Below are positions 1 to 21,495 of a DNA stretch of 32,000 nt, piece after piece; the first letter of the stretch is position 1, and each line of letters starts with the position of its first letter. Below the pieces are notes generated by a model. That model was not told where the DNA came from. It was given only the letters and a program-made list of their open reading frames with translations, and searched no databases. This DNA is from a virus, in IMG/VR virus record IMGVR_UViG_3300045988_175865, positions 1-32,000 of that record; one strand, written 5' to 3'. The position numbers and the translations under genes were made by a program.

Positions 1-3000
1 TTAGCACCTCTCCGTTAACTATTAATAACATAGATCAAGTAGATAATAAACTAGGATTAAAATTAAATACAGAAACTGATTCTACTCCTGATTTTTACAT
101 CGGAAATAATGGACAGTATTCAAATATGTTAAGACAATTTCGAGCTAAATTAATCGAAAGTTCTATATTTAATAGATATTCTGGAGAGTTTATTAATGCT
201 AATGAAAAGAAACAAGAATTTGATATCACTTTTTTAAATGATTCTATTTTAAATTATAAAAAAACATTAGCTTCTAATATTTCAAAATATTTAGGTAATT
301 CTGAATCTATAACATTAAATTTAGAGAATCTTACAGATTTTGATAATAAAGTTTCAGAAATATTAACTAATTTTGAAACTGTGTTTAATTCAGAATTAAT
401 TGATCGTAACAGTGCTTTTAATAACGCATATGACGCATATGTAATTTTAACTCAGTTTGATAAGTTATTGCAGAGTGAGATTCCATTTATTACTATTAAT
501 CCAAAATATACAAAGACGAATTCGTCTTATGTAGATCGTTATATATATAGAGGTCCTAATGTAATACACTATACTGGCTTTAGTACTAATGAAGATACAA
601 ACGCGGAAGACCATGCTAGTGATTTATCAAAAATATTGTTAGACTACTTTCCTGAAGTAAATGCAGTTGGTTTAGAAATAGATAATACTAGTATTACTTT
701 AACAGGATTTAATTCTGTAATGACAAAACTTATTAAGACTATTCAAGAAAATGAAAATTTAATAGAATATCGTTCAGAATTAAACAAAGGAGTTAAAGCA
801 GATATGTCTGTGTTAATAGACGCATATATAAATAATATACTTTCAAACCGAATTATATCTAAAAATTATAGAACATATTTATTAGATAAATTACGAGGTA
901 TTAAGAAATTTATATATTCGCCTCAAATGTCTTCTGAAATAAAAGCTATGTTTACTCAAATGGCTTTTAAAACAGTGCCATCGCAATATACAGCATATGG
1001 CTTTGATCCACAAAAAAAGACAATTGCTAGCAGAGATTTAAAAGAACGACCAGTATCGCAGCAAGCATACGATATTAGAAGTTTAATTCAGGCATCAGGT
1101 TTTTATTGAAGATCTAATCCTGATTTATTTAAAGAAAAATTAAATCAGTACGGAATTACTATAGGTAATGATAGAATTGTTATTGAATCTATTATAGATA
1201 ATATACCTATTACATTTACTATTACTTATGAATTAAATCAAAATGGCAAAATGATATATAGATCGTTTGGAGAAATTAATGATCAATCTTTGAACAATCT
1301 GATATATAACTTTATGTCTTTTATAATTCCAGAAAATATAGCTGAAATTATTCCTCAGGTATATCCTGTTGAAAAATATACAAAAACAGAACTATTTGTT
1401 CCATTATTAGCTACGACGTTATTAGATGGAAACAATAGTGATATTTTAACTAAAGAACACGATCTTGTTAATTTAGTTCCATTTACAGAAGATATATGAA
1501 AAGTAGCTAATGTATTAAGTGTAACAAATGGTTCGGATACTATTAATATTATTAAAAATGCAGAGGGAAATAACTTGCCATTATATCAAATTATTAGTTT
1601 GGTATATAATCATAACGAAATATTTGATAGACTAATTAATCCACCTACAGAAACAATTGAACATCCAAATAATGTAGCTGCACATAATTTAATAGTACAA
1701 AATATTGAAAGCGGTTTTTTATTATCTCCTAGAATTCGATCGGATATAAACATTAATGGAAAAATTAAAAAACCTGCTAATTTAAAAGTTAGTGAAGTTG
1801 CAAGATTATCTATCATGCACGATTTTTATCAAAATCTAGTAGATAATTTAGAGGGATTAATTTATTTACAACCGACTACTTTTTCTGATAAAAATAAACA
1901 TTTTCTAATAACATATAATATAGGTAAAACCATCAATACTTCTCTAGGAGAAGTAAACATTAAAGAAATTTTAAATAACTATTTAAAAGGAGATGGAACT
2001 TTAGATCCTTTATATCATCTTTTAGGAGAAACTAGAAAAAACCAAATAAATGCATTAGTTCAGAATATATTGTTTGACTATAGTCTTGCTTTTGATACAG
2101 AATTTACATCATTAGAACAGATTGATGAATTCATTGCGAAATATAATCACAGTTTAAAAAGTATTCAATCTGCATTTAATGCTAAGGGAGTTGATTTCTT
2201 TTTAGATATACATGCATATAAAACTGCCTTAAGTAAATACCCTCGAACTAACGAAACTATTAAAAACTTTTTTAAAGTCTATAATGATCAAAATAAAACG
2301 TTAGAACGTTTAGATAGAGAAAAAAGAAAATTCCTAAAGGACTTACTTGTAAATAACTTTAATTTAAATATTAATCAGGATAGTTTTATTTCTCAAACAT
2401 TTAATAAACCTGAATTTAAATCATTAGTTAATAAAAGAAATGGAGAAATTACATTAGCTGAAGTAACTGATGAAAAAGGTAAAAGAATTAATCTCAATAA
2501 AATAGTTGATTTTGATGCTTTACTTAATCTAAAATGAAAAGTTAAACTAAATCCCATTTTAGAATCATATTTTATTACTGATACTCTATTATCAAATGAG
2601 TATAATAATATGATGATAGGAGGTGTTTATGCACATCCGAATAAAAACAAAGACGGAAAGTTAGATAGCAAAGAATATTTTGAATTTAGTGAAGCTAATC
2701 GACTAATTGCTCAATATAAACGTATGGTAATATTTGGAGCTACTTATCATCCATTTGCTCAAAATTTAGAAAATGGAGTTGCTTCAAATATTAAAATTGC
2801 TGTAATTAACGATGAAGCGGGAACAGCCTGAAATATGTTAGGAGATGAAAATACTGGATTAGATACTATGGATGGATCTGGTTTATCAAGTCCACTTGAA
2901 TCTAGAGCAGAAAATAATTCACTCTTAGATGCAAGAGTTGGGCGCGATAAAAAAACTATTATGCATGATATCGATTCTCGGTATGGTAGACCAACTTTAT

Positions 3001-5537
3001 TAAAATGGGCTGTTTTTGATATAAGTAATGAAAGAAGACGCATTTCTTATGGTTCAGATATTTCATTAGAAAATATCTTTAAAAAAATGCATAGTATTCC
3101 AATTAACAAATCTATTATTTTAGAAAATTATTATAATATATTTGATCCTATATATTTTAAAGATATTCGAACCAATAAATATTATAAAATAAATTCAATC
3201 AAAACGATTTTAGATCCGAATGGATTAATTGAAGTTGCTAGAGATCTAACTGAAGTTGAATCTAATGGATTAGAAACAAACAATACTATTCAGACAACTC
3301 ATATAATAAATACATTATACGATATTGATCAAGTATTTGGTGGATCTTGAGCAATGAAATTTAATGAAGACATAAATCGTTTAGAATATTCTGAATCTAA
3401 TATTGATATACTTGAAAATATCGTTAACAAAGAGCAATTAAAAGATAAGTTTATTGCTTATTTAGTTAATAAATCTGCAATCAAAGTTGGAGCAGGAAAT
3501 ATAAATGATTCAAGTAAATGAAGTAACTCTGATGCATTTACTACTATTGAAATGTCTACTAAGTTTGGAGGAGTTCAAATGAACGCTGATCACCATTTAG
3601 ACATGTCAGAGGTTACCGAAATGACGCAAATGATTAGTGCTTTAGAGCAAAATGGATTTACACATGAGTTAGTAACTCAGATTTATAAAGAAATTGGTCA
3701 GATTGTTAAAGAATCCATGAATGATTTGTCAGAAACAATTAAAGCTAAAGATAAAGATCAACTGTATACTATATTAGGTAGATCATTAATTAAAGCTTTT
3801 ATGAATGATGACAAAGATACTTTAGGGTTAGCACAATCATTTGTTTATTTAGCTAATGAAAGTTTTAAAAATGCAAATTTAGATTATAAACTACCATTTA
3901 GCGCAGCAACAATTAATGGAGCTTTTATTGCTACTACAACATCTAACTTAGTTAAAAGTGGAATTAGACGTAAATATTCTGGTATAGCATCTGTACTAGT
4001 TCCTTCTCATAATATGATTCAATACTATAATATTGATGGACTTAATTATCAGTATGAAGAATTATATAATTTAGTAAATACAAAAGGTATTGATCATTTA
4101 TACGATGAAAACGGAAATATTATAAAAAGTAAAGTTGAACGTGCTTTAACAGAACCTATTATTGATGGAGAAATAAATCCTTTTATAATTCCAATTGAGC
4201 CAAATGATATTGATTTCGAAGATACAATTGTAATATTTAATGAAGAAGATAATCCTACTGTTATTAAAATTGATTCCTTAGAGAAATACTATTTATATAA
4301 GCACCAAGCAACCTTAGGACAACAATATTATAACTGAACAATTAAACCTAAAAATCTAAAACAGTCAAATACATTTTTTGATGTAGTTGTAGGCTTAGAT
4401 GGATTTGGAAATGAAATAAATAAACGTTTTAGTATATATGACTTAGATGCAGTAAGAGCATCTTATTATTTAAGTTCTCGTAGAAAACAATTAAAGAACT
4501 GGGAGGATTTAACAGAGTATGAAAAAACATTACTATCATCTGCATTAGGTTTACATCCAATCGATAATATACAGTTAAACATAGATAGTCTATTATCTGA
4601 TTTACAACAAAAGATACAATTACAACTAAATAGTTTAGCTGACAATCAATCTATTATTAATAATACTGCTTTTGGTATTACTAATCCAAATGTTAGAGTT
4701 GTTAAAGTATCTAATGTTAATGTTACTCCAACTCAAATTGTAATGGGGAAAAGGCAAGCTCAACAATTTGGATTGCAAAAAGGAGACTCTATTGCTCAGA
4801 TTAGACAAGAAAAAGAAAATTTCTTTTATAATCGAATGCAAAGTAACTATAATATTGGAAATCCAGATAAATTAACATATGATATTATATTATTTGATGG
4901 AACAGGAAAACAATTCTATGTAAAAGTTTTAAGAACAGAAGAAGTTCCAAAAGCATTTACAGGTAGTATTACTCCAAATCCTGATTTTAAAATTATTGAT
5001 AATATTGTATACTATAATGAAAAAGAATTTTCAACAAATGATGAGAAACAATTTTATAAGTATACAGATACAAATGGAAATATTCATGATTTAATTATTA
5101 TAAATTCTATAGATAGATTAGGTGAATTAAGAAAATCAGGATTAATTAATACATATCAATTTAATTATACTAGCGAAAATACTAAAAAATTATTACCTTA
5201 TCAATTTCGTTATAATATAGAAAATAATATTCCTATCACTTTACATACCAGAGATAGTGAAGGAAACTTGCATGAAGCTAAAATCAATCCAACAGCAGAT
5301 ATTAGTTACGTAAGTTTAAACCAAAATGAAATATATAACTTTAATCAAAGAATAAAACAATTAGCGTTTAATCAATATGAAGCATTTGAAAAGTCTTTAC
5401 TTCATGTAGGTACTCGCATACCGTCACAATCAATGCAGTCATTTGCTCCTATGGAGATTGTAATGTTTACAGATAGTGAAGTAAATGATGTTTATGTAGC
5501 TAAAGTAGTTACGTGAATGGAAGGCTCCGATTACGAT
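1..5537 (+). CDS. Giant virion-type protein, exon 1 (5' end outside window). Ends in a beta-prime-like DPBB catalytic domain of a single-chain crAss/YonO/QDE-1-type RNA polymerase.
   Basis: One frame (codon starts divisible by 3) is open from nt 3 to 5537 if the in-frame TGAs at 1107, 1497, 2535, 2829, 3348, 3519, 4335 and 5514 are sense; there is no in-frame TAA/TAG. Seven ORF-track pieces (126, 1251, 1575, 2610, 2835, 3552, 4743) share this frame. RIPSQSMQSFAPMEIV...VVTWMEGSDYD (5415-5537) resembles RNAP beta-prime RAPTLH..QAFEPVLI...NADFDGD. Confidence 0.75.
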
Positions 5538-6465
5538 AAACTTATCATGTCGTATTAAAACTCTTTTAATTGCTGGAAACTCTGACCGCGTTATGGCGAA
5601 GACAATCAGCAGCCAAGCCATATAAAAATGGAAGGTTCAACGACTAATATTAATAACTTAATAATTCGACTTTAATAGTATGAAACAGTTAAAAACACAT
5701 TTAAATAAAATAGGAAGAAATTTAATAATTGCTATGTCTATAGGGGATGGGCATATAGCTAAAAAAGGATATTTAGATATAAATCATTGTGAAGCTCAGA
5801 AAGAGTATTGTTTATGAAAATGGCAACTTTTAAAAGATAATGGAGTTAAAGTTGGCACGTTTAGAGAATGAAAACAAATAAATGGATATTCTAAAGGTAA
5901 AGAAGTAACTAAATATGGATTTCAAACAACAGTACTTGATTTTTGTAAAGTACTTAGACGAGTTGAATATGAGTACGGAAAAACTAAATATAATAAAAAG
6001 TTACTTAAGCGACTTGGAGCTCAAGGGTTAGCAATATGAATAATGGATGATGGAGCATTACTTCGTAGATCTAAAACAAATAAAGATGGAATACGAACAT
6101 ATTCAGGATTTTATATTACAATATCTACGTATTGTCCATTAGAGCAAGCTAATGATATTATAGAATATTTTAATGAAGAATGAGATATTTATCCGACTAA
6201 GGTTTTTGATAAAAGGCAGCAATCCTATATAATTAATTTTTGTGCCAGAGAAGGTAGAAAATTAATAGAAATTATAAAACCTTATATGTGTCCCCACATG
6301 ATGTATAAGGTTCTTCCTGATAAAATAGAATGTGAAAACTACATGAAGTTATTAAAAGAAACAGCTGAAACTGCTGTTGAAGGTACACTAGAAATAGTGG
6401 AAATGGAGAGCGCGAAAGCGAAGATATAGTCTGATCTATATAGAAATATATAGTTAACACAATTG
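5538..6465 (+). mobile_element. Group I self-splicing intron 1 (928 nt) with an internal LAGLIDADG endonuclease ORF
   Basis: P1: exon UACGAU (5532-5537) pairs with intron GUCGUA (5549-5554), with U.G at the splice site. Core elements are AAUCAGCAGCC (about 5605-5615), GGUUCAACGACUA (5634-5646) and AAGAUAUAGUCUGA (6421-6434). A GAAA-capped hairpin CUAUAUA/UAUAUAG follows, and the intron ends AACACAAUUG with a terminal G at 6465. The host reading frame shifts across the insert, and splicing restores it. Confidence 0.85.
5680..6429 (+). CDS. LAGLIDADG homing endonuclease (double-motif), encoded in intron 1
   Basis: ATG at 5680, TAG at 6427. Motifs are LIIAMSIGDGHI and GLAI-W-IMDDGAL. There are four in-frame TGAs (5815, 5869, 6037, 6180), one at the conserved Trp of the second motif. 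The 3' end overlaps the intron P7 core. Confidence 0.88.
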
Positions 6466-7077
6466 ATAGATAAACAATATATCCTTGGCTATTCATTATC
6501 ATCTAATGGTCGTATTCATACTGATGAAAACTCAGCACCTTATTTACGAGCTGATGCATTAAGAAATAGAGTTGTAGATGGTGTATTTAGTATTATTCTT
6601 AATCCTAGAAACCAAATTAACTTAACAATGCCAGTAACTACTGATCGAATGCAAAGTCTTGCTAAAAGATCTAAAATGGGTGAAGCTGCTAAATATATGA
6701 GTCCTTACAATCCAGCAAGTAAGTACTTAATGCAGATTCAAAATATGGTTGGTAAAGCAGTTATTGGTAATGTTGCTACGGCATTAAAAAGTTTCTTTGC
6801 CTTAAGCAACGTATATAATACCAAGTTTAGAGAGATTAATGAAGCAATTCAAACTGGTAATTTTGATATAGCTAGAACGATGTTAAAAAGATATACATTT
6901 ATCCATAATGATAGACTAATAACATTAGCTAATGTTAATATGGAAGTATTTGAGAGTCTACCTGAAAATACTCCTGAAGATATTAGACAAACTCTAGCTC
7001 AAGTAATTAGTTATGAGGATGCCTTAGATGATCAATCTATGGTACTTGGAGAACTTTTAAATAGTGCTACTGATTTT
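6466..7077 (+). CDS. Giant RNAP-like protein, exon 2
   Basis: Starts IDKQY..., completing GSDYD|ID. This is the ORF-track 6463 frame, open to about 7077; beyond that the translation becomes a hydrophobic run (FFIRKLLNNLPILIFIIIFAL*) typical of intron read-through. The 3' boundary is uncertain by a few nt. Confidence 0.65.
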
Positions 7078-8372
7078 TTCATCAGAAAATTATTGAATAA
7101 CTTGCCTATATTAATTTTTATTATTATCTTTGCACTATAGATAAAAATAATTTAAAACAAATTAATATGGCAAAGAAATTAACAAATGAAGAAGTTGAAA
7201 AACTTCATAAAATGTATTTAGAAGGAATGACTTGTGAAGAAATTGGAAAACTTACAGGTCATAAAACAGAAACAGTATCTAAATATCTAAAAGAGAATTA
7301 TGATATAAAGCCTCAAAGAAAAATTGATTTAGTAATTTTATCAAAACTAGCAAAAGAGGGAAAAACAACTAAAGAAATGGCAGAATATTTTAATGTACAT
7401 CCTTCTGCTATATGCTATTGAAAAAAGTATTTTAATGAAGGAGATCTAAAGATTTCGCACCCTTTTTTGCAAGAAGATCATCAATTATCTCATCTACAAG
7501 AACAAATGATTCTTGGCAGTTTATTAGGAGATATGAACATAGGAAAACCTAGAAAACATCATCCTACTTGTAGATTATCCTTAGTACACTCAATTAAACA
7601 AAAAGAATTATTTATGAAGAAAGTAGAAATTCTTGGAGAATTTATGAGTAATTATAGAGAATATAGTTATTTAGATAATAGAACAAATAAAATATATTCT
7701 ACTATAAGAGGAAATAGTAAATCTCATAAAGTATTTAATGATATGTATAATAAACTATATATTAATGATATTAAAACAATTACTAAAGAATATTTAGATA
7801 TGATTAATCATCCAATAGCATTAGCTTACTGATTTATGGATGATGGAACGAATTCTGGACAAATAGCTACAAATTGTTTTTCTTTTGAAGAGGTTAAATT
7901 ACTATCGAATTGACTAGAAAACAAATTTGGTATTATTACAACAATGCACAAAAATTTAAGAAATTATACTTTATATATAGTTGCTAGCTCTAGATTTGAA
8001 TTTGATAATTTAATTTCTCCTTATATTATTCCTTCTATGAAATACAAATTAAAATTTTCTGAAATAGCAGAGTCAGTTAACTCCGTGAAAACGGGAAAGC
8101 CCTTAGAGATTTAAATACTAAACTATTATAGTAATATGATAGTGGCTAAGCTAATCACTTAGATATAGTAATAAGTTTAAATATTGGGTAATCCGTTACT
8201 AAGCTTCCTAATAGGAAGAAAGTTCAACGACTATCGAAATGCAGAAATGACAGAGTAGAGTAGAACTTAAGTAAGTTCGAAGTGCGGAGATCCTGTATAG
8301 GATAAGATATAGTCTGAACTCATAGGAAACTATGAGAGAACTTATGGAAACGATAAGTTCGTAACAAAATTG
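7078..8372 (+). mobile_element. Group I self-splicing intron 2 (about 1.3 kb) with a 5'-located HTH-LAGLIDADG ORF
   Basis: The structured 3' core (8115-8372) contains GGGUAAUCCGUUAC (about 8186-8199), AGUUCAACGACUA (8221-8233) and AAGAUAUAGUCUGAAC (8304-8319), then a GAAA-capped hairpin CUCAUAG/CUAUGAG. The end AACAAAAUUG (G at 8372) is nearly identical to the ends of introns 1 and 3. The 5' splice site is provisional (7074-7078): the U-run 7074-7079 can pair with GAAAAU at 7085-7090. Confidence 0.75.
7167..8114 (+). CDS. Homing endonuclease: two N-terminal HTH modules plus a LAGLIDADG domain, encoded in intron 2
   Basis: ORF-track 7167 and 7467 pieces are in the same frame and are joined by TGA at 7419. 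Further TGAs lie at 7830 (ALAY-W-FMDDGTN) and 7911. TAA at 8112. Motifs are LGSLLGDMNIG and WFMDDG. Confidence 0.85.
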
Positions 8373-10637
8373 AATGCAAAGGAATTAATCCTTAAAAAAA
8401 TTAATGCAGATACAAACTGGGTAGATATTTATACTATTTCTCTTATGTTAGGTGAATCACTAGATGAAATTGGTAATTTAATGATTGATGATGATATAAC
8501 AGAACTAGTAAATGATTTTACTACTAGTATGTTTAGTGATGAACAGAACTATGATAAAGTTCGTTATGTTGCTGATAAAGCATATACCTCTGAAGGAGAG
8601 AAAAAAGAGAAATATCTACAATTGCTGGATAAAGTTATATCTGCGGATGAAGTACGTATCTTAGGAAAGATACTTAAAATTAATCAAGGTCTTCCTACAA
8701 ACACTTCTGATTTATATAGTTATATTAAATCTATTGAAAAATATATAGAAAGTAGGTTTAATAGACAAATACTAGAAAAACAAGAAGAATATTTAAGAAT
8801 TGAAAAGGAGTTAGAAAAAACTTGATTAACTCCTGAAAAGAAGGAAATATTAAAAGAGGAACGAAGATTACAAAAAATATATCCAGAATTAGAAGAAGGG
8901 TCTTCATTATATAATTTCTATAATAAATACAATTTAATATATGAAGATATAAATGGTAATATTAGACATGGAGATTTAGAAGCCAAACTTGGTAAACCTA
9001 AAGAAGCTATAAAGGCTAGACAAGATTACTTTAAGTCTAGAAAAGAAATGGCTAATATCTGGCAATCTTTTGACTTAGTTAGATTTATTACCGATCCAAT
9101 CTACAAACAGGAAAGTATTGAAAAATATGAACAAAATAAGGTTAATTTTAATATTTTGGAAGTAATCAGTGCAGTTCCTCATTTTAGAGAAATGTTTAAT
9201 GTTCTTGCAATTAACAAAAGTGTTCTTAATAGTTTATCATCTAGAAATAGGTTAGAAGATATAATTCTAAACCAACTTAGTAGGAACTTTGCTGGAGTTC
9301 GTATGGATGTAAGCAAACCACTAAATAAACTTGAAATTAGAACTATAAAAGATCAGATAGATAAGTATCTTATTAGATCTTGGATTATTAGTAAAGGAAT
9401 TGAAATAAATGTTCCCGCTAGTCCTAAGAATCCAGCTCCTTATATATTAAGATTGGATAATGAAAATAATATTAACAAGTTTAGAAGTTATGTTGAAAAC
9501 TACGCTATTCCTTTATTAAAGGATAAGTTGAAAAATAATAAGTTTGTTCAGCTATTAACTTTTGGACTAAGACAAGGAGTTCCATTCTATAAGCTACCAC
9601 TTAACATGGTTCAAGTTGATAACACTCAGAAGACTAGGGCTTTATACGAAGAAGCATTATATGCTTTTAATAACCTTAATAAGGTCAAAATAACTGGTAT
9701 AGATATGAACTTAGTGGATATGTTTTATCTATATAACTTAGTTGTTAATCAAGATAAATTTGGTCCTAATTCTATGACTAGGATATTTGAAGACTTAGTA
9801 TCATCTGGTAATGAAGATCTTCTTATATATGATTTTAATAATTGAATTGATAGTCAAAATATTGAAGACTTAGTTAACAGATTTAGAACAGAAGAAAATA
9901 GTATTAGGTTTAATTTAGTAGAATCAACTCCTATTGTAGATGACACAAATTCTGATATTGGATTTAAAGAAACTCCTTTAGAAGAGGATATTGAAGAGGC
10001 TCAATATGAAGAATTAGCAGATAATCCTGTTAAAGAAAATAATGAAGTAGCTGAATATTATCAAACTAACCCTTCAACTAAATCAAAACTTATAACAATA
10101 ATTAAAGAATCTAATTTAAAAGGACTTCACATAGTTACAGATTCTGATTTAGTTAATGAAGATTCTACTACTAGAAATGCTAGGGGATTTGTGAAGAATG
10201 GTGAAATCTATATTAATGTAGATAGAGCCGAAGATGATACAGTAGTCCATGAATTTAGCCATTTATATTTAGCAGATGCTAAAGTAAATAGTCCTAATGA
10301 ATACTATTCAGTACTAAGTAGAGTTAGAAATACAGGTACTTGGAAATATATGAGAGAGATACCTGAATATCAAAATAAAAGAGGATCTGATTTTGATGAA
10401 GAGGTTCTAGCAACTTTAATTGAGCGAGCATATAATGAGGGATTAGGAGGAGCAGATTATGATGTTGCAATAGATGCTCTGAATCTTACATCTCCAGAAT
10501 TTAAATCATTTATAAAATCTGATATTCTACCATCATTAGGAGAGACATTAATAGAGAATTATAAGGTATCTCAAAAGATAGCTACACTTAAAAATAAGCT
10601 CATCAAAGATAATATTATTAAAGAGGATTGTAAATAA
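8373..10637 (+). CDS. Giant RNAP-like protein, exon 3, with a C-terminal zincin-like HExxH module
   Basis: ORF-track pieces 8370, 9048 and 10191 share one frame and are joined by TGAs at 8823 and 9843. HEFSH lies at 10248-10262 in the context GFVKNGEIYINVDRAEDDTVVHEFSHLYL. TAA at 10635-10637. Confidence 0.7.
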
Positions 10638-13600
10638 TGGAATGTACATATGAAACTACAATAAACGGTAAGAAGATAAAGTTCAGCTCCGAAATGGAGC
10701 TGGACAACTTCTTATCAAGTAAATTAGCAGATTATCAAATAAACGAATCAGATTTAACTTTTCAAATTAATCCTATAGATAGTACTATAGAGAAGGTAAA
10801 TGCTATTACAAGTAAAGTTAAAAATGCTTCTATAGAATCTGTAATTATAAATGATGATGGAGATTCAGAAACTATACTTAAGATTCCTGACTCAATAGGT
10901 ACTACTAGATTTATTACATCTAATGGGGATCCTTCTAATATGCAAAAGGAATTAGTTCCTCCTTTTAACTTAAATGATTTCTTAAAAAAAGAAAGAGAAA
11001 GATTAAGTGCAGAAGGAATGACTAAATCTCAAATTGATTCATATTTAGAAAAGTTACAAAAGTCTTGAACTCAGTTAACTGATTATGGTACTGAAATACA
11101 TTCCTTATTTGAAAGTATTATTAATAATACTACATTCAAACCAACTAATTTGAGTGAAGAACAGGTATTACGTTTAACTGAAGAATTTAAATCCTTTATT
11201 GAAGATATTAAATCTAAATATGGTAAAAATGCTAAAATCTTAACAGAAGTTCCTATAATATCAGATAAAATTCATGAAGCATATCAATCAGAAGGAATTA
11301 AAAGTATTAATGGTAGAATTGATATGCTAGTTATTGACCAGAGAGGATTTGCTCATATTTATGATTTTAAAGTTTCTAGAAAAGAAGTAGGAATATGAGA
11401 GGATACTAGAAACATACAAGGATCAACTACATGGCACTCTACTAAAAAACGTTCTGTGGGGTATCAGTTAGGAATATATAAGAATATTCTAGCACAATAT
11501 GGCATTACTGTAGGAGAAACAAACGTTGTTCCTATTAAAATAGATCCAGAATATAATGAAGATGGAACTATTAATAAGCTAAATGATGCTTATATTGATT
11601 TTACTAAAATAAAAGTAAATCCTAATGCTCCATATACAGAAACTATAAATACTATTCTTCCAGTAAAAACATTACTTGATGATATTGATCTTATAAACTC
11701 AATTCAGGAACCAATGACTAAATTTGTTCCTAATTATGCAGTAGAAACTCAGGTACAGAGAAATACAGTTACTGTGGATAAATACATTAATAATCCTAGA
11801 ATTGTACACTATATTGATGACACTGACCCAGAACGAAAGTTTGGAAAATACTGAATTTGGAATAAATATAAGAAGAATCGTAAAGTATATGCTAAAACAG
11901 AGGAGGAACTCAGAGAAAAAGTACAAGAATTAGTAAATGAAGAAAATAAACATATTCACTCTGAAATGTCTACCTTAGCGGATACCATTCAACAAATTAT
12001 TGAAGGATATGAATCCATTGATGACTTAGCTGCTGATAACCCATTTAAGTCTGATTATTGTAAAAAGATATTTAGAAAATATTTAGTAAAAAAGAGTGAA
12101 ACTGACTATGGATGAACTTTTCAAAATAATCCTAAATTTATAGCTGCAGGTATATTTGTATTTACTAAGGATGGTAAAATGGAAATAATATCTGTTACTC
12201 ATAATGATATTCATTCAGTTGTTAATTTAGGTCTTGGCAAATCTATTCAAGGAGCAACTAAAAAGGATAGTGATATTGATAGTCATGTAATAATGCAAGC
12301 ATCTAACGGTAATATTGACCTTGTTAAAGTTATGTGTTTATTAAATAATATGCCTGAGGTACTTAAAGGATACAAAGTTAATAAAATAGAATCACATAAT
12401 ATTTGAATTCAAAAAGGTACTGAGACCTATTTAGAAACTCTTTTAGATAATTTTTCTGAATTATGCAGGATACATGGTATTACCAATAATCTTACATCTC
12501 AAAATTTTGCAACAACATTAGAAGCAGCTGTAAATATAATAAGAGATACTGCTGGTGAAGAATTACTATCTCACATGGGTAATTGAGAATTTAATTTTAG
12601 TCCTAATGATATTGTAAATGGAGTTCCATTCATCTTGCAGAAAATGGAACAACTAAGAAAATTAAAATCTGCAGATGGCCTTCGTACTGCTTTAAGAGAA
12701 GGCAAATGAAATTTTGATGATCCTATTCAGCTAGCATATATGTTATTAGGCAGAGCACTAAATAAACTTAACGGATACTCTATTTATATTGAACAAGATC
12801 CTAAATTGTGAGTAAATTTTTCTAGGGAAGGATGATACACTGGTTCATATGTGAATAGTGCTAGTAACTCTTCTTCTAAAAATATTCAAACATTAAGTAA
12901 AATATTTTCAGTAGCAGAAGCTCATATTAGAAGGAAAGAATTATCATACAAACCTAGGATTAGTAAAGTAGTTAAGGCTTTATATGAATACAATCACAGA
13001 AATAGACTTATTGGAGGTGAGGTTAAGTTTTTTGATAACTTATTTGTTAAGGATACAAACGGTAATATAGATAAATCATTTAGACTAAAAAATCCTTCAG
13101 ATAGTAGTTTGGCTAAGGAAGAATCTGACTTTATTAAGATGTTTCTAGAGATAGTAAATGATTTTAGATTTGATGGTAATCAAAGTAAAATAGCTAAAGC
13201 CATTGAAGACGGTTCTTACTATGAAGTTCCTGTTTCTATGGGAAGTACATCTACTCAAATCCACAATAAAGGATATAAACAAGCCTTTACATCTAAATAT
13301 AATGAAGCTTTAAACTTTCTAAAACTTCTTCCTGAACAAGAGCAACAATTTAGGGAATCAAAAGGAGAGCCAAAGGTATATAATAAATATAGATTAAATG
13401 GACTTAGTAGATCTGATTTAATTGAAAATTATGGGATAGATGGTCTAGAAACTCAACTTGAAGATTTGCTATTAAATGTCATCCATACATACACAATGGA
13501 AGAAGTAATGAATGAATATCTTCCCAGACTTCAAGGTATTAAGATTGCCTTACAATATCAAACTGGGATGTTTGGAGTAGTTACTGATCATGTTTTAGAA

Positions 13601-15037
13601 TATATAGATAAATTTATTGATGCTAACGTTTATAGTAAGCCTATTATGGCTAAAGAATTGCAAGGTGCATATAAGATGTTATCTGTAGTTAAATCAATAA
13701 CAACAGCTACCGCTCTCGGTTTAAATCTTAGATCAGGTATTCGAGAAATGATGCAGGGAATGTGAATACATCTAAGTAGAACTATGGCAGAAGCTTATGG
13801 AAAGGATCAGTTTACTAAAAAAGATGTTGCTAAAGCATGGGCTATTATATTTAAACAAAGTGTTAAAGATATTAATACTTTAACATTAATTGATGCCTTA
13901 AATGTGGATTATGGAATGGCTAACGCCGATCCCCATCAAGTCCAAGAGAGACTAAGTTCATCTAAAGCAGGTATTAAAAATTTAGATTCTGATTCACTAT
14001 ACTTCTTTAATAGAGTACCTGACTCGTATCATAGAATGGGATTATTAATTGCTAAGATGTTGCATGACGGATGTTATGAAGCTCATAGTATTGTCAATGA
14101 CCAACTTATCTATGATTTCAAAAAGGATAAAAGATTTAGTTTATTGTCTGATTCTAAAGCTGATAAGAATTCTATAGAGTATAAAAAGCAACATGCTTTA
14201 TATACTGCTATGAGAGAACAGTTTAATAGAGAAGGATGAAATATCCAAGATGGAGATGATTTACCACGGGCTTATACTATTCAAGAAGGAACTAGTATTA
14301 AATCGTTTGCGGAATTATGCTTTGGGCACTATGATAAAAGTACGCAAATGCTTATGAAACAAATGTTTCTAGGTGCTATGATTCTACAATTCAGAACATT
14401 CCTATCAGCTAAGTTTGAACAGTGGATATTAAAGCCAGATACTTATAATCAAGGTCAATACACTGAAAAATTTGATGAAAATGGAGTAAGATATATTCGT
14501 ATATTTACATTTGATGAAAAAGGAATTCCATCTGTTAGAATCGGTCTTGAAACAGAATTAAAACCTGATGATATTTGGGAACCTTACATTGAATGGCAAG
14601 GCAGATTTATGGAGGGAATTGCATATTCAATAATTAGTTTTGGAAAAACATTATACAAGTTAGATTTTAATGGTTTTAAAGAACTATGAAAAAATCCAAC
14701 TAAAAGAGCTAATTTCTATTTATTCTTACATGATATGATCTGAATGTCTATACTTATGTGAATTGTTAAAGCTCTATTTTTATCTGAAGAAGAAGATCTT
14801 GGACCTGTGGGTCATTTAGTAGGTACTTCATTATATACATCTTTTTCTGACGGGCCAATTACTAATATTATGGCTTCAATGTTTGGAGATTTAAATCCAC
14901 CTATGCATAGCATAGTTGTGAACTTATATAGACAAACTTCTGGAATAATTACAGGAGATGTTAATTTATTTGATGCTAGTGTCAATTCATTTGGAGCATT
15001 AAATAGTTTAAAATATATTGGTGATCAGTTAGAATAA
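10637..15037 (+). CDS. Giant protein 2 (about 1466 aa) with an N-proximal PD-(D/E)xK (RecB/Cas4-like) nuclease domain and hydrophobic C-terminal segments; probably a virion or ejected protein
   Basis: ATG overlaps the upstream TAA (TAATG at 10635-10639). Eight ORF-track pieces (10637 to 14807) share one frame and are joined by about 14 in-frame TGAs, ending at TAA 15035. Nuclease motifs are GTEIH (11087), GRIDML (11312), IYDFKVS (11357) and QLGIY (11465). Confidence 0.7.
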
Positions 15038-17715: not shown

Positions 17716-18798
17716 TTAAATAAGTTTTGCAGCTAATTTTGGGTTAAGTAATAGTTTATTACATTTACCAGGATAGTGTTTGTTTAGTGTTCTTACTAGG
17801 CTAAAGAGTAGATCTTCAGTTAACAATAACTTATCATTATCAACTATCCTAAGAATACGATCTATAATTAGGTCCATTTTACACCCAGGTTTACTAAGAT
17901 ATAATAAGCTATAATTTATAAATCTAGTGGTAATTACAGAAGCTATATCGGCACGATACTTACCTTTATCATATAATTGATTCTCAAGTATCCTTTTAAT
18001 ATCGTTCCAATCCGTATTAACTAGTTCTTCTGGGGAAGGAAGTTTATCTAATTTATTAGCTATGAATGTAGTAAATAATCCCCCAACAATATCATCACTA
18101 TCAAGAAAACATCCAGAAGCTATTTGCAGAATAAAGGATAAATTCTCAGGTTTAGACCAATCATCAATACTAGAAATAGTATTAATAAACATAGTATAAT
18201 TGCGAGCATTAATTTTAGACTGCCTAGATTTTGAACGGTCCATTAATTCATCACTATAAAGAAGCATAAAGTTAATCGCCTGATTATTATACCCTTTTTC
18301 CTCGGCATATTTAGCCCAATCATATTTATCAAACTTAATATTAAAGTTTAACATACGGGTTTTTATAGCCTCATCAATTTCTGTTACATTAAAATCTCCC
18401 CCTTCAGGATTAGCTGTTAAAATAACAGTACTATTAGGAGGTAATTTCCAAGAGAAATATTCTTGTCTTGATATAAGCTCCATAATAGCAGCCAATACAA
18501 TTGGAGAGCTACGATTCACATCGTCAAGATTCAAAATTGTAGGTTTACTTAGATCAATACTTTTTATCCATTCTGGAATTGCATAGCTCATTCTAGTTTC
18601 CTCAGATATTTCCCAACCTGCTTTACTATAACTTTCTATAAGTTCTGCAGTTATCCATCTACATTCATCATTTTTACATACATAGTGCTCTTTAATTGGC
18701 CACCCGCAAATTTCTCCTGGGTCTGAAATTTGACTAAGGTTTTTCTTGATGTAATTAGCACCAATTTCACTAGCTATTTGTTCGATTAAACTCGTTTT
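17716..18798 (-). CDS. MoxR/AAA_5-type AAA+ ATPase, exon 2
   Basis: Begins KTSLIEQIA (the second half of Walker A). Walker B-like ILNLDDVNR, sensor-1-like VILTANP, and DEAIKTRM. No TGA; all eight Trp codons are TGG. Confidence 0.8.
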   Translation of the reverse strand, partial: KTSLIEQIASEIGANYIKKNLSQISDPGEICGWPIKEHYVCKNDECRWITAELIESYSKAGWEISEETRMSYAIPEWIKSIDLSKPTILNLDDVNRSSPIVLAAIMELISRQEYFSWKLPPNSTVILTANPEGGDFNVTEIDEAIKTRMLNFNIKFDKYDWAKYAEEKGYNNQAINFMLLYSDELMDRSKSRQSKINARNYTMFINTISSIDDWSKPENLSFILQIASGCFLDSDDIVGGLFTTFIANKLDKLPSPEELVNTDWNDIKRILENQLYDKGKYRADIASVITTRFINYSLLYLSKPGCKMDLIIDRILRIVDNDKLLLTEDLLFSLVRTLNKHYPGKCNKLLLNPKLAAKLI

Positions 18799-20215
18799 CA
18801 ATTTTGTTATCTCTAGAGCTTTTTATCTCTAGATTCTATATCTTCATATTCGATATAGTTCAGCATATCTTTTCACCTCTAAAAATAGTAAGGTGGAGCA
18901 CACTCGTGGGAAAATTATATTCTGTACAACAGGTTCATTTCCTATGCGTTGCACTGTAGCAAATCATTTAAATCTGCTATTAGCTCAGGATTAGCATCTC
19001 AGCCTTCCCTGAATTTGCGCTCTAATAATTTTAAAGATTTCTCTTTAAAACGGCAATCTTTGATTTTATTAAATATTTGATATTTTCTATCTAAATAAAT
19101 TGTTGATTTATAATATAGGTGATATAAGTAGGCAGTTGCCTTTATTCCCGAAAAACTAAATGCAAAAGTAAAATCGCTATGATTATTAGAAAACAAATGT
19201 CTAGGCTCTAAGTAGCTTACCATTTTACTTAAAAATTCTTTTGCACCTAAACAGCTTATTTCTGGTTTATCATATAATCCTAATGACCCATCACCATCAA
19301 AATATCCTCTAATAAAATGTCTTATTAAATCTTTAGACTTAAAGATATTTTCATTAGGAAATTTTAAAGTCAGTGACTTTTTAGGAGTACATCCGTAAGA
19401 ATTTAATGTTTCTCATAAGTGTTTATTTGTTAGAGCAAATCTACATCTAAAATATTGCTTATTGTTACATATAATAGATGATATTTTTACTCTATTACCT
19501 GTTACTTGAAAAAACTTCTGTAATTTATATAAATGTTCCACATCAGATCCTTTTAAAGAAACTTCAAAATTATAATGAGGTTTTCCATTTTTAGGAATTG
19601 AAGCAATATATCCATCAGCAAAAATAAAACCCAATCAATAAGCTTTTTCTTCGGTATCTATAATATCAAAAATGTGTTCATTAAATTTTAGCATATTTTG
19701 AGTATTAATAACTGGTATTCCAAGTTTCTTTAATCTAATAGAAAAATTGCTTCGACTAAATTTATATTTATTACTTATTTGTGTTAGGCTATAACCATTA
19801 CTATACATCTGCACTGCCTCTTCAAAGTAAGTATCTAAATTACTCTTTCGTATATTAATGTTATTATTATGAAGAATAGTGGAAATAGTATTTCTGGATA
19901 CATTATATAGTTTAGCTATATCACTACAAGTTTTACCCAAATTATATAGTTTACAAATATTAATTTTTTCAGATAATATTAATTTACTACACTCTCTACA
20001 AAGAGAATTTCTATTAGCTACACGACTAACTGTAGTAGGATGTACTTTACAAATTTTACTTATATCTTTAATCTTATAACCTTGATTATATAAATCAATA
20101 ATCTTATTTTCTAAATCATTACTAATTTTTTGCATAATATTTAAATTTTAAATAAATTAAATCTATGCAAAAGTAATAATATAAAACAATTTAATCAAAT
20201 ATTTTATAATAAATT
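18799..20215 (-). mobile_element. Group I self-splicing intron 3 (about 1.4 kb) with an HTH-LAGLIDADG ORF, splitting the ATPase Walker A motif
   Basis: On the minus strand: AAUCCUGAGC (18983-18992), CAACGCAUAG (18942-18951), AAGAUAUAGAAUC (18832-18844), hairpin UCUAGAG/CUCUAGA (18812-18833), and the end AACAAAAUUG with terminal G at 18799. Exon 1 ends ...PGIG (GGU). Exact splice sites are good to a few nt; the P1 pairing is weak. Confidence 0.75.
18942..20135 (-). CDS. Homing endonuclease: three N-terminal HTH repeats plus a double LAGLIDADG domain, encoded in intron 3
   Basis: ORF-track pieces 19635..20135, 19413..19634 and 18999..19223 are in one frame and are joined by TGAs at 19635, 19413 and 18999. 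Motifs are AY-W-LGFIFADGYI and FIRGYFDGDGSL. TAG at 18942. Confidence 0.85.
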
Positions 20216-20338
20216 ACCTATACCAGGAAGTGAAGTAAGTTGAACACTTATTGGAAATTCTCCTCTTTCTTGGAGAGATCTATTATTGTTTATAATATAT
20301 TTTAAAATAGGTTTTATTTCTCCTAATGTTAGTTCCAT
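20216..20338 (-). CDS. MoxR/AAA_5-type AAA+ ATPase, exon 1 (41 codons)
   Basis: MELTLGEIKPILKYIINNNRSLQERGEFPISVQLTSLPGIG. Joined to KTSLIEQIA it gives the Walker A sequence PGIGKT. Confidence 0.75.
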
Positions 20339-20343
20339 ATTTA

Positions 20344-21495
20344 TTACGGTATTAATACAGTTATTCCTGGAAACTTCTGAGATTTATTCCCATCAGATGT
20401 AATAATCCAGATTAAGTTTTTACAAGTTGAAAATGTAAATTTAGATAAGTAACCATCAGTAAATATCACACAAGAACTAAATTCTTTGTGTTCTTTATAG
20501 AAGTCTAGAGCTGGGCAAACATCAGTACCTCCACGACCAATAAATTCAAATTTACTTTTTTTATCATATTTACATATCTTAGTGATATTAGTATCACACT
20601 CTATAATTGTTATATCTACACCTGTTTTATATATATGATTAACTTCAGATATAAAATTAGAAAAGTCATTCATATTTATAGAACCTGAAGTATCAATAAC
20701 AACACATATGTTTGGTTTTCTTTTTAAACGAGTTCCTCTAGCATCAGGTAATCTTTTTGAAGGTCTCATCCTAGTTAATTGTAGATCACTACTAATAGAA
20801 TCTCCAACTACTCGTCTAAAATAGTTTCTCCAGTTAAAAACTGGAGGATTATTTCTTATTTTTTCAAGTATTTCTTTTAATTCTCCAGGTATGTGGCCTA
20901 CTTGTTTATTAACAAGAGCTTCTGTTTCTTTTAACTTAGACTTTACTTGATTTTCATATAATTTACGTTCGGCTTCCGATATATCTTTAGGCCACATATC
21001 ATGATTATCTATACTTTTAAAGTCGGCTAATCCTTCAGTACCAGGGATACATTTTTCAGGGTGTTCTTTAACAAACTTTTGTATTTCATTATAATAATAC
21101 CACGCCCCTCTATTGGGCTCTAGGTTCTTTCCAATTAACTTAGAAAGATTCTGTAAAGTAACACACCCATCAGGCAATCCTGTAACTATTTGGTTCACAA
21201 CTACATCTGTTGCTATATTCATATTATCATGATTATCTGCTTTGAAATCATCAGTAAGATGAAATAAACATATGTGTACTAACTCATGGGTGAGCACAGC
21301 AATACATTCAGTATCAGTAAGGTTATTCCAAAATGTTTCATTTACATATAATGTAAAATTGATACCATTAGGACCTACAGCAGCTGTTTTTACAGGATGA
21401 TTATCACTAACAATCTCCTTGCGTAGATTTAGCAAGAAAAGTCCATAAAAAGGTTGCTGAATAAGAAGCTCTTTACATGCTTTAATTAATTGCAT
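20344..21495 (-). CDS. vWA-domain protein with an N-terminal putative metallopeptidase domain (DUF2201-like); partner of the AAA+ ATPase
   Basis: HExxH in LTHELVHICLFH. MIDAS DxSxS in VVIDTSGSINMND. It lies immediately upstream of the ATPase on the same strand. No TGA. Confidence 0.75.
   Translation of the reverse strand: MQLIKACKELLIQQPFYGLFLLNLRKEIVSDNHPVKTAAVGPNGINFTLYVNETFWNNLTDTECIAVLTHELVHICLFHLTDDFKADNHDNMNIATDVVVNQIVTGLPDGCVTLQNLSKLIGKNLEPNRGAWYYYNEIQKFVKEHPEKCIPGTEGLADFKSIDNHDMWPKDISEAERKLYENQVKSKLKETEALVNKQVGHIPGELKEILEKIRNNPPVFNWRNYFRRVVGDSISSDLQLTRMRPSKRLPDARGTRLKRKPNICVVIDTSGSINMNDFSNFISEVNHIYKTGVDITIIECDTNITKICKYDKKSKFEFIGRGGTDVCPALDFYKEHKEFSSCVIFTDGYLSKFTFSTCKNLIWIITSDGNKSQKFPGITVLIP

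What the first reader, a model, noticed from the sequence alone, without database searches (positions are those of the whole stretch)
5538..6465. Intron 1: textbook P1, and the endonuclease ORF ends inside the ribozyme core
Exon UACGAU (5532-5537) pairs with intron GUCGUA (5549-5554), giving a U.G wobble at the cleavage site. The intron ends in G at 6465. The LAGLIDADG ORF (5680-6429) reads ...AKAKI* across AAGAUAUAG, which is also the conserved AGAUAUAGUC element found in all four introns here. About 10-30 nt are therefore under dual protein and RNA-structure constraint. The endonuclease itself needs four TGA=Trp readings, so the mobile element is adapted to the recoded translation system.
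Basis: partly seen in the sequence, partly recalled or inferred. Interest (0 to 1): 0.65.

Follow-up and report, generated by a model that had tools for sequence, protein, structure and literature searches.

The report
Group I intron splitting crAss-phage RNA polymerase
This is a real but ordinary self-splicing group I intron carrying a homing-endonuclease gene; it sits in the middle of the catalytic Asp motif of the giant RNA polymerase gene of a crAss-like gut phage that reads TGA as tryptophan.

Summary
Bases 5538-6465 are a 928-nt subgroup-IA2-type group I intron. P1 (UACGAU/GUCGUA, U5537·G5549), the terminal G6465, and helices P3 to P9 are all present. In 20 related introns 96% of cells pair, against 29-41% in slid controls. 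Splicing gives ...GSDYD|IDK..., which restores the DFDxD catalytic motif of the crAss-like virion RNA polymerase; a profile of the spliced region hits PDB 6VR4 at E 6e-26. At least 26 related IMG/VR contigs carry the uninterrupted junction. ORF 5680-6429 is a LAGLIDADG_2 endonuclease with four in-frame TGA codons, three of them aligned to TGG-Trp in homologues. That stretch is constrained as RNA rather than as protein, because a relative reads the same bases in another frame. Only three, not four, copies of AGAUAUAGUC are present. Rfam detects the intron only as two sub-threshold fragments, because the ORF splits it. Group I introns with LAGLIDADG genes in recoded crAss-like phages were described by Yutin et al. 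2021, so this is a new member of a known kind. Side findings: related introns occupy three staggered sites in the same motif, and this copy is a recombinant of two intron variants.

The parts
3..5537 (+). Exon 1 of the giant virion RNA polymerase gene (runs off the window's left end). It ends ...WMEGSDYD and contains 8 in-frame TGA codons.
   Evidence: Table-4 translation. A profile of the spliced junction region hits PDB 6VR4, the phi14:2 gp66 RNA polymerase, at E 6.3e-26.
5532..5537 (+). P1 5' strand (UACGAU). The 5' splice site follows U5537.
   Evidence: Covariation with the guide sequence across homologues.
5538..6465 (+). Intron 1: a 928-nt group I intron of subgroup-IA2 type.
5549..5554 (+). 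Internal guide sequence, the P1 3' strand (GUCGUA). G5549 pairs with U5537.
5561..5566 (+). P3 5' strand (CUCUUU). No P2 lies between P1 and P3; the joiner is only UUAAAA.
   Evidence: RNAalifold and pair counts: 5 of 6 pairs show compensatory changes.
5571..5611 (+). P4 (5571-5576 with 5606-5611), enclosing P5 (5581-5583 with 5600-5602) and P5a (5587-5589 with 5596-5598). Carries the P and Q elements.
5612..5636 (+). P6 (5612-5614 with 5634-5636) and P6a (5618-5621 with 5628-5631).
   Evidence: P6a covaries, e.g. CCA/UGG here against CCG/CGG in L008.
5636..5646 (+). R element UUCAACGACUA. The P7 5' strand GACUA is 5642-5646. G5642 pairs with C6431, the presumed guanosine-binding pair.
   Evidence: The guanosine-binding assignment is by analogy with Tetrahymena G264-C311, from my own knowledge.
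5648..5663 (+). Tentative P7.1 hairpin (AUUAA UAAC UUAAU). A possible 6-bp helix, 5666-5671 with 6376-6381, would close the ORF loop.
   Evidence: MFE fold of the ORF-deleted intron. L024 changes G·U to G-C in the closing helix, but L009 does not support it. Tentative.
5680..6429 (+). LAGLIDADG homing endonuclease ORF: 249 aa, TGA=Trp at codons 46, 64, 120 and 168, stop TAG at 6427-6429. It lies between P7/P7.1 and the GUA-P7.2 element.
   Evidence: Pfam LAGLIDADG_2, 8.7e-19, 68.5 bits against a cutoff of 25. PHROG 11023. I-SceI at E 0.002. TGA/TGG alignment.
6383..6404 (+). GUA linker (6383-6385), P7.2 hairpin CACUA-GAAA-UAGUG (6386-6399), and most of the conserved joiner GAAAUG. All of it lies inside the ORF.
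   Evidence: The stem covaries in relatives: CACAA/UUGUG, GAGCAG/CUGCUC, GUGAGA/UCUCAC, GAGCC/GGCUC.
6405..6410 (+). P3 3' strand (GGAGAG), inside the ORF (codons ...M E S).
   Evidence: Pair types at the outermost pair: UA 11, CG 6, GC 2, AU 1.
6411..6420 (+). P8, CGC-GAAA-GCG, inside the ORF.
   Evidence: All 4 aligned pairs covary across the family.
6421..6431 (+). J8/7 (AAGAUA, 6421-6426) and the P7 3' strand (UAGUC, 6427-6431); together the S element. The ORF's stop codon UAG forms the first three bases of P7'.
6436..6453 (+). P9 hairpin CUAUAUA-GAAA-UAUAUAG.
   Evidence: (6 of 7 pairs covary).
6465..6465 (+). Terminal guanosine (omega-G). The 3' splice site follows it.
   Evidence: Relatives all end ...AUG| or ...UUG|.
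6466..7050 (+). Exon 2 of the RNA polymerase gene, beginning IDKQYILGY. Its 3' end, before intron 2, was not mapped precisely.

Best explanation
Bases 5538-6465 are a mobile group I intron of subgroup-IA2 type. It interrupts the giant virion RNA polymerase gene of a crAss-like phage exactly inside the catalytic DFDxD motif (DYD|ID).

Proposed mechanism. In the pre-mRNA the guide sequence GUCGUA pairs with the last six exon bases, with U5537·G5549 at the splice site. The core folds as P3, P4-P6, P7, P8 and P9, with a GUA-P7.2 element between P7 and P3'. A free guanosine bound at the G5642-C6431 pair of P7 attacks the 5' splice site. The terminal G6465 then takes its place and the exons are joined as GAU|AUA, restoring ...GSDYDIDK.... 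The intron also carries a LAGLIDADG endonuclease gene, translated with four UGA=Trp readings. The endonuclease presumably cuts intron-less polymerase alleles at this highly conserved sequence, so that repair copies the intron in (homing). The last 47 nt or more of the ORF are ribozyme sequence (GUA linker, P7.2, P3', P8, J8/7, first three bases of P7'). A ribosome finishing the ORF would therefore unfold the core, so translation and splicing must be separated in time or on different molecules.

Shown here: the structure and its covariation, the exon junction, the protein family and the codon usage. Inferred: catalysis, homing, and the conflict between translation and splicing.
For: P1, the U·G pair and omega-G are read directly from the sequence. 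The guide sequence covaries with the exon codon in homologues.

Core structure: RNAalifold on 20 ORF-deleted family members independently recovers P3, P4, P5, P6, P8 and P9. With P7 added, 96.1% of cells pair against 29-41% when partners are slid. There are 141 compensatory cells against 14-31 in the slid controls, and 0 of 500 shuffles reach the observed values.

Rfam Intron_gpI: two local hits on the window intron, at E 1.5e-6 and 1.7e-4. ORF-less relatives with the same P/Q/R/S core score 72-103 bits, above the gathering score of 50.

Junction: the spliced protein aligns without a gap to intron-less homologues. At least 26 related IMG/VR contigs carry a contiguous GAYTAYGAT|ATHGAYAAR. Matches in intron-containing contigs break exactly at residue 66|67 of the query.

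Host gene: the profile hits 6VR4 gp66 at E 6.3e-26 and aligns GSDFDIDK. The DFDxD motif is the catalytic site according to bioRxiv 10.1101/2020.03.07.982082.

Endonuclease: Pfam LAGLIDADG_2 at 8.7e-19. TGA codons 46, 120 and 168 align with TGG-Trp in homologues.

Overlap: the coordinates of P7.2, P3', P8 and P7' fall inside the ORF. L009 reads GGAAAUGGAGA in a different frame, yet the RNA helices are kept.
Against: No hit reaches the Rfam gathering score on the window intron itself. Whole-window scans return nothing. The ORF-less intron at the same site in L077 also fails the gathering score.

P4, outer P6 and P7 are invariant in my alignment because the search pattern required them, so they carry no covariation evidence. 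P10 is weak here: about 2 bp plus a wobble, read by eye. P7.1 is only tentative. There is no RNA evidence of splicing and no biochemical evidence of endonuclease activity. No suppressor tRNA lies in this window.
Confidence: 0.93

Rival explanations
1. It is a true group I intron but does not splice on its own. It needs its LAGLIDADG protein acting as a maturase, or a host or phage factor, to fold.
For: The intron is very AT-rich. P3 has two G·U pairs, P8 has only 3 bp and P10 is weak. Yutin et al. label the LAGLIDADG ORFs in the crAss transcription block 'endonuclease maturase'. The Rfam scores of the fragments are modest.
Against: Known phage IA2 introns self-splice, for example Pf-WMP3 (PMC3428280). 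All core helices and the GNRA loops on P7.2, P8 and P9 are intact. ORF-less members of the family exist and must splice without an intron-encoded protein.
Confidence: 0.12
2. It is a decayed intron or a disrupted gene. The polymerase gene would be a pseudogene, or expressed by some unknown mechanism other than RNA splicing, as Yutin et al. suspected for DxDxD disruptions in Zeta-group phages.
For: Yutin et al. 2021 reported polymerase ORFs broken inside the DxDxD motif and proposed 'additional, yet unknown expression mechanisms'. There is no gathering-score Rfam hit.
Against: Every helix is intact and covaries. Splice sites chosen by the U·G and omega-G rules restore the motif in frame in 13 homologous introns. 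The endonuclease ORF is intact. The gene is essential and its product is packaged in the virion.
Confidence: 0.03
3. There is no intron: a split polymerase gene with a free-standing endonuclease gene between two separately translated halves, or alternatively an intein.
For: GenBank annotators of cr116_1 and cr131_1 called the pieces separate CDSs.
Against: The break falls between the second Asp and the following Ile of the DYDID triad, so neither half would have a complete active site. Exon 2 has no start codon near its beginning. The exon-1 frame hits a stop 18 nt into the insert, and the endonuclease ORF is in a different frame, which excludes an intein. The flanks of the ORF form a covarying ribozyme.
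Confidence: 0.02

Closest known systems
Group I introns with LAGLIDADG ORFs in recoded crAss-like phages (Yutin et al. 2021, PMC7886860)
   Same: Same phage assemblage and same kind of element. That paper's Fig. 3 legend marks LAGLIDADG intron ORFs in the transcription gene block. It also notes intron ORFs with TGA codons that must be suppressed, and polymerase ORFs broken within the DxDxD motif.
   Different: That work found introns through protein domains and did not model the ribozymes or map splice sites. It left the DxDxD breaks unexplained. Here the break is resolved to the nucleotide as a canonical intron.
Phage subgroup IA2 group I introns (e.g. the Pf-WMP3 DNA polymerase intron with I-PfoP3I, PMC3428280; T4 td and Twort introns, from my own knowledge)
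   Same: P1 with U·G, omega-G, P/Q/R/S elements, P7.1/P7.2-type insertion linked by G-U-A, no P2 (as in Pf-WMP3), an ORF that contributes bases to core helices, and insertion in a conserved catalytic region of an essential gene. The 5' core is 85-87% identical over 54 nt to the DNA polymerase intron regions of Pectobacterium phages CB7 and phiTE.
   Different: The endonuclease is LAGLIDADG rather than HNH or GIY-YIG. The host gene is the crAss-type two-barrel virion RNA polymerase. The ORF lies between P7.1 and P7.2 and needs UGA=Trp. P7.1 is only tentative here.
I-SceI-type monomeric LAGLIDADG homing endonucleases (Pfam PF03161)
   Same: The Pfam hit covers residues 21-194. Two LAGLIDADG-like motifs are present (IAMSIGDGHI and LAIWIMDDGAL). 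There is weak direct similarity to I-SceI at E 0.002, including the KPYxxPxMxYK segment.
   Different: Very divergent from I-SceI. It carries a roughly 55-residue C-terminal tail beyond the domain, of which the last 15 or more residues are simply translated ribozyme. Activity and target are untested.
Intron ORFs that extend into ribozyme core sequences (review PMC3984707, Fig. 2b)
   Same: The ORF's 3' end overlaps core helices. The review states that expression of such ORFs is tightly controlled so as not to interfere with folding and splicing.
   Different: Nothing unusual in kind. The extent here (P7.2 through P7') and the frame shift between relatives are simply documented.

Membership tests
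Group I intron (Rfam RF00028) | P1 helix formed by the exon end and an internal guide sequence, with U·G at the 5' splice site | tested here: met
   UACGAU/GUCGUA with U5537·G5549. Compensatory changes in L008, L009, L001, L038 and L077.
Group I intron (Rfam RF00028) | The intron ends in G (omega-G), and exon ligation restores the host reading frame | tested here: met
   G6465. The junction GSDYD|IDK is in frame. It is contiguous in intron-less alleles.
Group I intron (Rfam RF00028) | Conserved core P3-P4-P5-P6-P7-P8-P9 with P/Q/R/S elements and the P3/P7 pseudoknot | tested here: met
   96.1% of cells paired, 21 pairs with compensatory change, 0 of 500 shuffles. P4 and P7 are invariant by construction of the search pattern.
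Group I intron (Rfam RF00028) | Covariance-model score at or above the curated gathering score (50 bits) | tested here: inconclusive
   The window intron gives two fragments of 33.3 and 26.4 bits, split by the roughly 770 nt between R and S that hold the ORF. The whole-window scans give none. ORF-less relatives with the same core score 72-103 bits. L077, at the same site, scores below the gathering score. An ORF-deleted construct could not be submitted to the tool.
Group I intron (Rfam RF00028) | Guanosine-dependent self-splicing | not testable with these tools
   Needs an in vitro splicing assay or RNA-seq.
Subgroup IA2 | P7.1 and P7.2 between P7 and P3', linked by G-U-A (criterion as stated in PMC3428280) | tested here: inconclusive
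   GUA (6383-6385) followed by P7.2 (6386-6399) lies between P7 and P3', and P7.2 covaries. P7.1 (5648-6563 is not meant; the hairpin is 5648-5663) is only an MFE prediction. ORF-less relatives L015 and L034 show both hairpins.
LAGLIDADG homing endonuclease (Pfam PF03161 LAGLIDADG_2) | Profile match above the curated cutoff, and two LAGLIDADG motifs with acidic residues | tested here: met
   68.5 bits against a cutoff of 25. Motifs IAMSIGDGHI and LAIWIMDDGAL.
LAGLIDADG homing endonuclease (Pfam PF03161 LAGLIDADG_2) | Site-specific cleavage of the intron-less allele | not testable with these tools
   Candidate target: GGNTCNGAYTAYGAT|ATHGAYAAR, as found in L048-L070.
crAss-like virion RNA polymerase (phi14:2 gp66 type), as the host gene | Homology to gp66 across the DPBB region carrying the DFDxD catalytic motif | tested here: met
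   Profile A4 against PDB 6VR4, E 6.3e-26, aligning TGSDFDIDK. The single sequence alone gave no hit.

The most novel reading that the evidence does not exclude
One family of IA2 introns, with endonucleases 70-93% identical to each other, has colonised three staggered positions (GSD|FDID, GSDF|DID, GSDxD|ID; 0, -3 and -6 nt) inside the codons of the DFDxD catalytic motif of crAss-like virion RNA polymerases. In each case the guide sequence is re-tuned to the new exon end. This would be a natural case of a group I intron 'sliding' within the footprint of a single homing endonuclease. It would also account, without any new expression mechanism, for DxDxD-motif disruptions of the kind Yutin et al. 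2021 left unexplained. In addition, the invariant ribozyme core appears to act as a patch of homology at which otherwise about 40-70% identical polymerase alleles recombine: the window's intron is 100% L031-type up to about 5650 and 100% L008-type after it.
Probability: 0.4. Interest if true: 0.55.

Novelty: new member of a known kind. Interest (0 to 1): 0.35.

Why it matters
For annotation, it shows that the break in the middle of the catalytic DFDxD motif of this phage's virion RNA polymerase is an ordinary, precisely definable group I intron. Splice coordinates can therefore be written down and the full polymerase reconstructed. Yutin et al. 2021 had suggested that such breaks might need unknown expression mechanisms. 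At least for this lineage and about 15 related contigs, none is needed.

For intron biology, it gives a clean example of an endonuclease ORF whose last 15 or more codons are translated ribozyme. The RNA is conserved while the peptide is not. The element sits in a genome that reads UGA as Trp.

None of this is new in kind.

Tried and rejected
1. Whole-window Rfam scans, at the gathering score and at E<=10, found no group I hit. This is explained by the speed filters and by the ORF splitting the model. Searching 5520-6480 alone gave the two fragments.

2. My first hand-drawn structure was rejected by covariation. It had P2 = UUAAAA/UUUUAA, P3 = UUAAU/AUUAA directly after P7, and the ORF in the P8 loop. 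The real P3' is GGAGAG at 6405-6410, P8 is a small local hairpin, and there is no P2.

3. Single-sequence searches with the junction protein against PDB and PHROGs found nothing. A profile of 8 homologues found 6VR4.

4. tblastn against GenBank phages found only four distant homologues.

5. A degenerate DNA pattern for the exact intron-less junction EGSDYDIDKQYI found nothing in IMG/VR. The protein-based locus search then found at least 26 intron-less alleles.

6. The last Rfam search, on the ORF-less intron at the same site in L077, was below the gathering score.

7. A fourth group I core was looked for with R, S, P and Q patterns and by Rfam on 18700-20450. None was found.

8. The intein and split-gene readings were rejected on frame, stop codons and the split catalytic triad.

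9. I considered that TGA recoding had caused the ORF to run on into the core through loss of an ancestral TGA stop. I dropped this idea. The tail here contains no TGA, and TAG-recoded relatives also read through to just past P7'.

Full report
CONTEXT. The window has 25-33% G+C. A block of plus-strand genes runs to about 15,034 and minus-strand genes follow. Long reading frames appear only if TGA is read as a sense codon: exon 1 of the first gene has 8 in-frame TGA and 2 TGG. No tRNA gene lies in the window. DNA and protein similarity point to crAss-like phages (Crassvirales): cr116_1, cr131_1, cr114_1 and unverified human-faecal phage scaffolds. Related IMG/VR contigs are 86-174 kb long. That size range overlaps the intron-rich 'Zeta' group of 145-192 kb described by Yutin et al. 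2021 (PMC7886860). Assigning the window to that group is my inference, not a test.

OBSERVATION.
- UACGAU (5532-5537) pairs with GUCGUA (5549-5554), with U5537·G5549 at the splice site.
- Base 6465 is G.
- ORF 5680-6429 encodes 249 aa ending AKAKI, with its TAG stop at 6427-6429 inside AAGAUAUAGUC.
- TGA codons lie at 5815, 5869, 6037 and 6181.
- AGATATAGTC occurs exactly three times in the window, not four: at 6422, 8305 and 26149 (minus strand). The chance expectation is 0.17.
- Each of the three copies lies in a region with an Intron_gpI match.

IS IT A GROUP I INTRON? Whole-window Rfam scans were empty. When 5520-6480 was searched alone, RF00028 matched two stretches:
- 5568-5648: model positions 57-150, covering P4 to P6 and the R element; 33.3 bits, E 1.5e-6.
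- 6420-6451: model positions 220-251, covering the S element and P9; 26.4 bits, E 1.7e-4.
The model is split by the roughly 770 nt between R and S that hold the ORF.

A pattern built from the P, Q and R elements found 37 IMG/VR loci with the same core. Seven of them lack an ORF. The six of those submitted to Rfam score 72-103 bits for RF00028, above the gathering score of 50.

I aligned 20 distinct family members with the ORF removed (A3). RNAalifold on its own recovered P3, P4, P5, P6/P6a, P8 and P9. With P7 added as a pseudoknot, the pair counts are as follows:
- 96.1% of cells pair, against 29-41% when the 3' partners are slid by 1-3 columns.
- 141 cells carry a change on both sides, against 14-31 in the slid controls.
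- No shuffle out of 500 reaches the observed pairing, compensatory-cell count or covariation score.
P4, outer P6 and P7 never vary because the search pattern fixed them. The evidence therefore rests on P3, P5, P6a, P8 and P9.

In window coordinates the helices are:
- P3: 5561-5566 with 6405-6410
- P4: 5571-5576 with 5606-5611
- P5: 5581-5583 with 5600-5602
- P6: 5612-5614 with 5634-5636
- P6a: 5618-5621 with 5628-5631
- P7: 5642-5646 with 6427-6431
- P8: 6411-6413 with 6418-6420, closed by a GAAA loop
- P9: 6436-6442 with 6447-6453
An MFE fold of the ORF-deleted intron reproduces P1, P4 to P6, P7, P7.2, P8 and P9. There is no P2.

A GUA triplet (6383-6385) followed by a covarying hairpin (6386-6399) and the conserved joiner GAAAUG lies between P7 and P3'. 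PMC3428280 gives 'P7.1 and P7.2 linked by G-U-A' as the mark of subgroup IA2, and describes a phage IA2 intron that likewise lacks P2. P7.1 here (5648-5663) is only a prediction.

SPLICE SITES AND HOST GENE. Joining 5537 to 6466 is in frame and gives ...VTWMEGSDYD|IDKQYILGY.... Intron-less homologues are contiguous across this point:
- MT835492: GADYDIDKAYVMG.
- cr114_1 and MT835560: GSDFDIDKLYV.
- At least 26 closer IMG/VR relatives (65-83% aa identity over 190 residues): GAYTAYGAT|ATHGAYAAR.
In the same search, intron-containing contigs match only residues 1-66 or 67-190 of the query, which is exactly the predicted break.

Only a 1-nt shift of both boundaries would give the same mRNA. The U·G and omega-G rules select 5538-6465.

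A profile of the spliced region from 8 phages hits PDB 6VR4, the virion RNA polymerase gp66 of the crAss-like phage phi14:2, at E 6.3e-26. It aligns our motif with TGSDFDIDK of gp66. The DFDxD motif is the catalytic site of that enzyme (bioRxiv 10.1101/2020.03.07.982082). The intron therefore sits between the second Asp and the Ile of the catalytic triad. This is the usual homing-endonuclease strategy of targeting codons that cannot drift (PMC3984707).

P1 COVARIATION. The guide sequence follows the variable middle codon of the motif:
- Window and L024: UAC (Tyr), UACGAU/GUCGUA.
- L077: UAU, UAUGAU/GUCAUA.
- L008: UUG (Leu), ACUUGGAU/GUUCAAGU.
- L001 and L038: UUC (Phe), UUUCGAU/GUCGAAA and ACUUCGAU/GUUGAAGU.
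- L009: ACUACGAU/GUUGUAGU.
'Textbook P1' is justified. P10 is weak in the window: about 2 bp plus a wobble, read by eye from the sequences.

THE ENDONUCLEASE AND THE CODE. The ORF matches Pfam LAGLIDADG_2 (8.7e-19; residues 21-194), PHROG 11023, and weakly I-SceI. The related endonucleases fall into two clades that are about 39% identical to each other. In clade B, several host phages use TAG as a sense codon or the standard code. Trp codons at the positions of the window's TGA codons 46, 120 and 168 are TGG in clade B. Codon 120 is the W of the second LAGLIDADG-like motif, AIWxMDDG. Clade-A ORFs carry 4-5 TGA and 0-1 TGG. Several clade-B ORFs carry in-frame TAG instead.

OVERLAP OF ORF AND RIBOZYME. 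The ORF lies between P7/P7.1 and the GUA-P7.2 element. Its last codons are GGU ACA CUA GAA AUA GUG GAA AUG GAG AGC GCG AAA GCG AAG AUA UAG. These encode, in order, the GUA linker, P7.2, the GAAAUG joiner, P3', P8, J8/7 and the first three bases of P7'. The overlap is 47 nt (6383-6429), or 54 nt if the tentative closing helix at 6376-6381 is real.

The constraint on this stretch is on the RNA. L009 has a 2-nt shorter P7.2 loop, so the conserved GGAAAUGGAGA is read as G-N-G-E there and as E-M-E here. P8 is CGC/GCG here, CACAC/GUGUG in L009 and UCUUAAU/AUUAAGA in L024, and the peptide tails differ in sequence and length. Across the family the stop codon lies anywhere from before P7.2 to just after P7'. 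The Pfam domain ends at residue 194. 'Dual constraint' is therefore better described as a dispensable protein tail printed over an essential RNA. ORFs that run into core sequence, and the resulting need to keep translation from disturbing folding, are a known situation (PMC3984707).

SIDE FINDINGS.
(1) The intron is a recombinant. The window is 100% identical to L031 up to about 5650 and 100% identical to L008 from about 5650 onward. The other parent is only 36-88% identical on its wrong side of the crossover. All three sequences are identical between 5632 and 5688, around the R element, and the crossover lies in that interval. Both parental types share the same P3 sequence, so the chimera keeps all its pairings.
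(2) Related introns sit at three staggered sites in the same motif:
- after GSDxD: window, L008, L009, L024, L001, L038, L077;
- after GSDF: L019, L040, L032 (and L014 by its P1 helix, its 3' end not being held);
- after GSD: L002, L027, L036, L075.
Each has its own matching P1, and each restores D[FYL]D[IV]D on splicing. Clade-B endonucleases that are 70-93% identical occupy all three sites.
[quoted passage not shown] For this lineage an ordinary intron suffices.

VERDICT. This is a genuine, intact group I intron of IA2 type with a LAGLIDADG homing endonuclease. It is a new member of a known kind. Splicing and homing are inferred, not shown.

Noticed in passing
window 5632-5688 (crossover interval); compared with L031 and L008: Intron 1 is a chimera. 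It is 100% identical to the L031/L024-type phage up to about 5650 and 100% identical to the L008-type from about 5650 onward. The exons on the 'wrong' side are only 36-78% identical. The crossover lies in the invariant R/P7 region, which suggests that the ribozyme core serves as a patch of homology for recombination between divergent polymerase alleles.
   Followed up: partly
L002, L027, L036, L075 (after GSD); L019, L040, L032 (after GSDF); window, L008, L009, L024, L001, L038, L077 (after GSDxD): Related IA2 introns occupy three staggered insertion sites, 3 nt apart, inside the DFDxD-coding sequence. Each has a matching guide sequence. Endonucleases 70-93% identical to each other are found at all three sites.
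   Followed up: partly
window ~7060-8340 (+); ORF 7101-8111; core 8118-8336: A second group I intron lies in the same polymerase gene: Intron_gpI 36.8 bits, E 4e-8, R element at 8223, S element at 8305. Here the ORF lies upstream of the core and encodes HTH domains plus LAGLIDADG_2 (7e-35). The 5' splice site was not mapped.
   Followed up: partly
window 26135-26523 (-): An ORF-less group I intron (Intron_gpI 37.8 bits, E 5.7e-8) lies between two minus-strand ORFs, 26510-27559 and 25207-26139. These look like halves of one gene, possibly the DNA polymerase, but Pfam gave no hit for either.
   Followed up: partly
window 18945-20147 (-): An ORF with several HTH domains and a LAGLIDADG_3 match lies between unrelated genes. 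Rfam found no group I core around it.
   Followed up: partly
L009 (IMGVR_UViG_3300029723_000002), end of the endonuclease ORF, compared with window 6386-6429: A 2-nt difference in the P7.2 loop puts the conserved GGAAAUGGAGA in a different reading frame in L009 (…GGNGEHT*) than in the window (…VEMESAKAKI*). The RNA helices are kept while the peptide is not.
   Followed up: yes
L046 326-3098; also L023 and L015: Very high intron density in some related contigs: four Intron_gpI hits of 79-93 bits within 2.8 kb of L046, and two each in L023 and L015.
   Followed up: no
L077 2192-2500: An ORF-less intron of about 309 nt sits at exactly the same DxD|ID site in a related polymerase gene, with P1 UAUGAU/GUCAUA and a long AT-rich insertion in P5. 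It does not reach the Rfam gathering score.
   Followed up: partly
window, whole: In-frame TGA codons occur in genes on both strands, for example 6 in 26510-27559(-) and 14 in 10634-15034(+). No tRNA gene, and so no suppressor tRNA, lies in these 32 kb. GC skew changes sign at about 15,000, where gene orientation flips.
   Followed up: no
L001 (cr116_1, NC_055882) 6001-6880 and L002 (cr131_1, NC_055902) 3250-4050: In these RefSeq crAss genomes the same kind of intron is annotated as three separate CDSs: a polymerase piece, a 'hypothetical protein' similar to a PVP-SE1 gene product, and another polymerase piece. No intron feature is annotated.
   Followed up: partly
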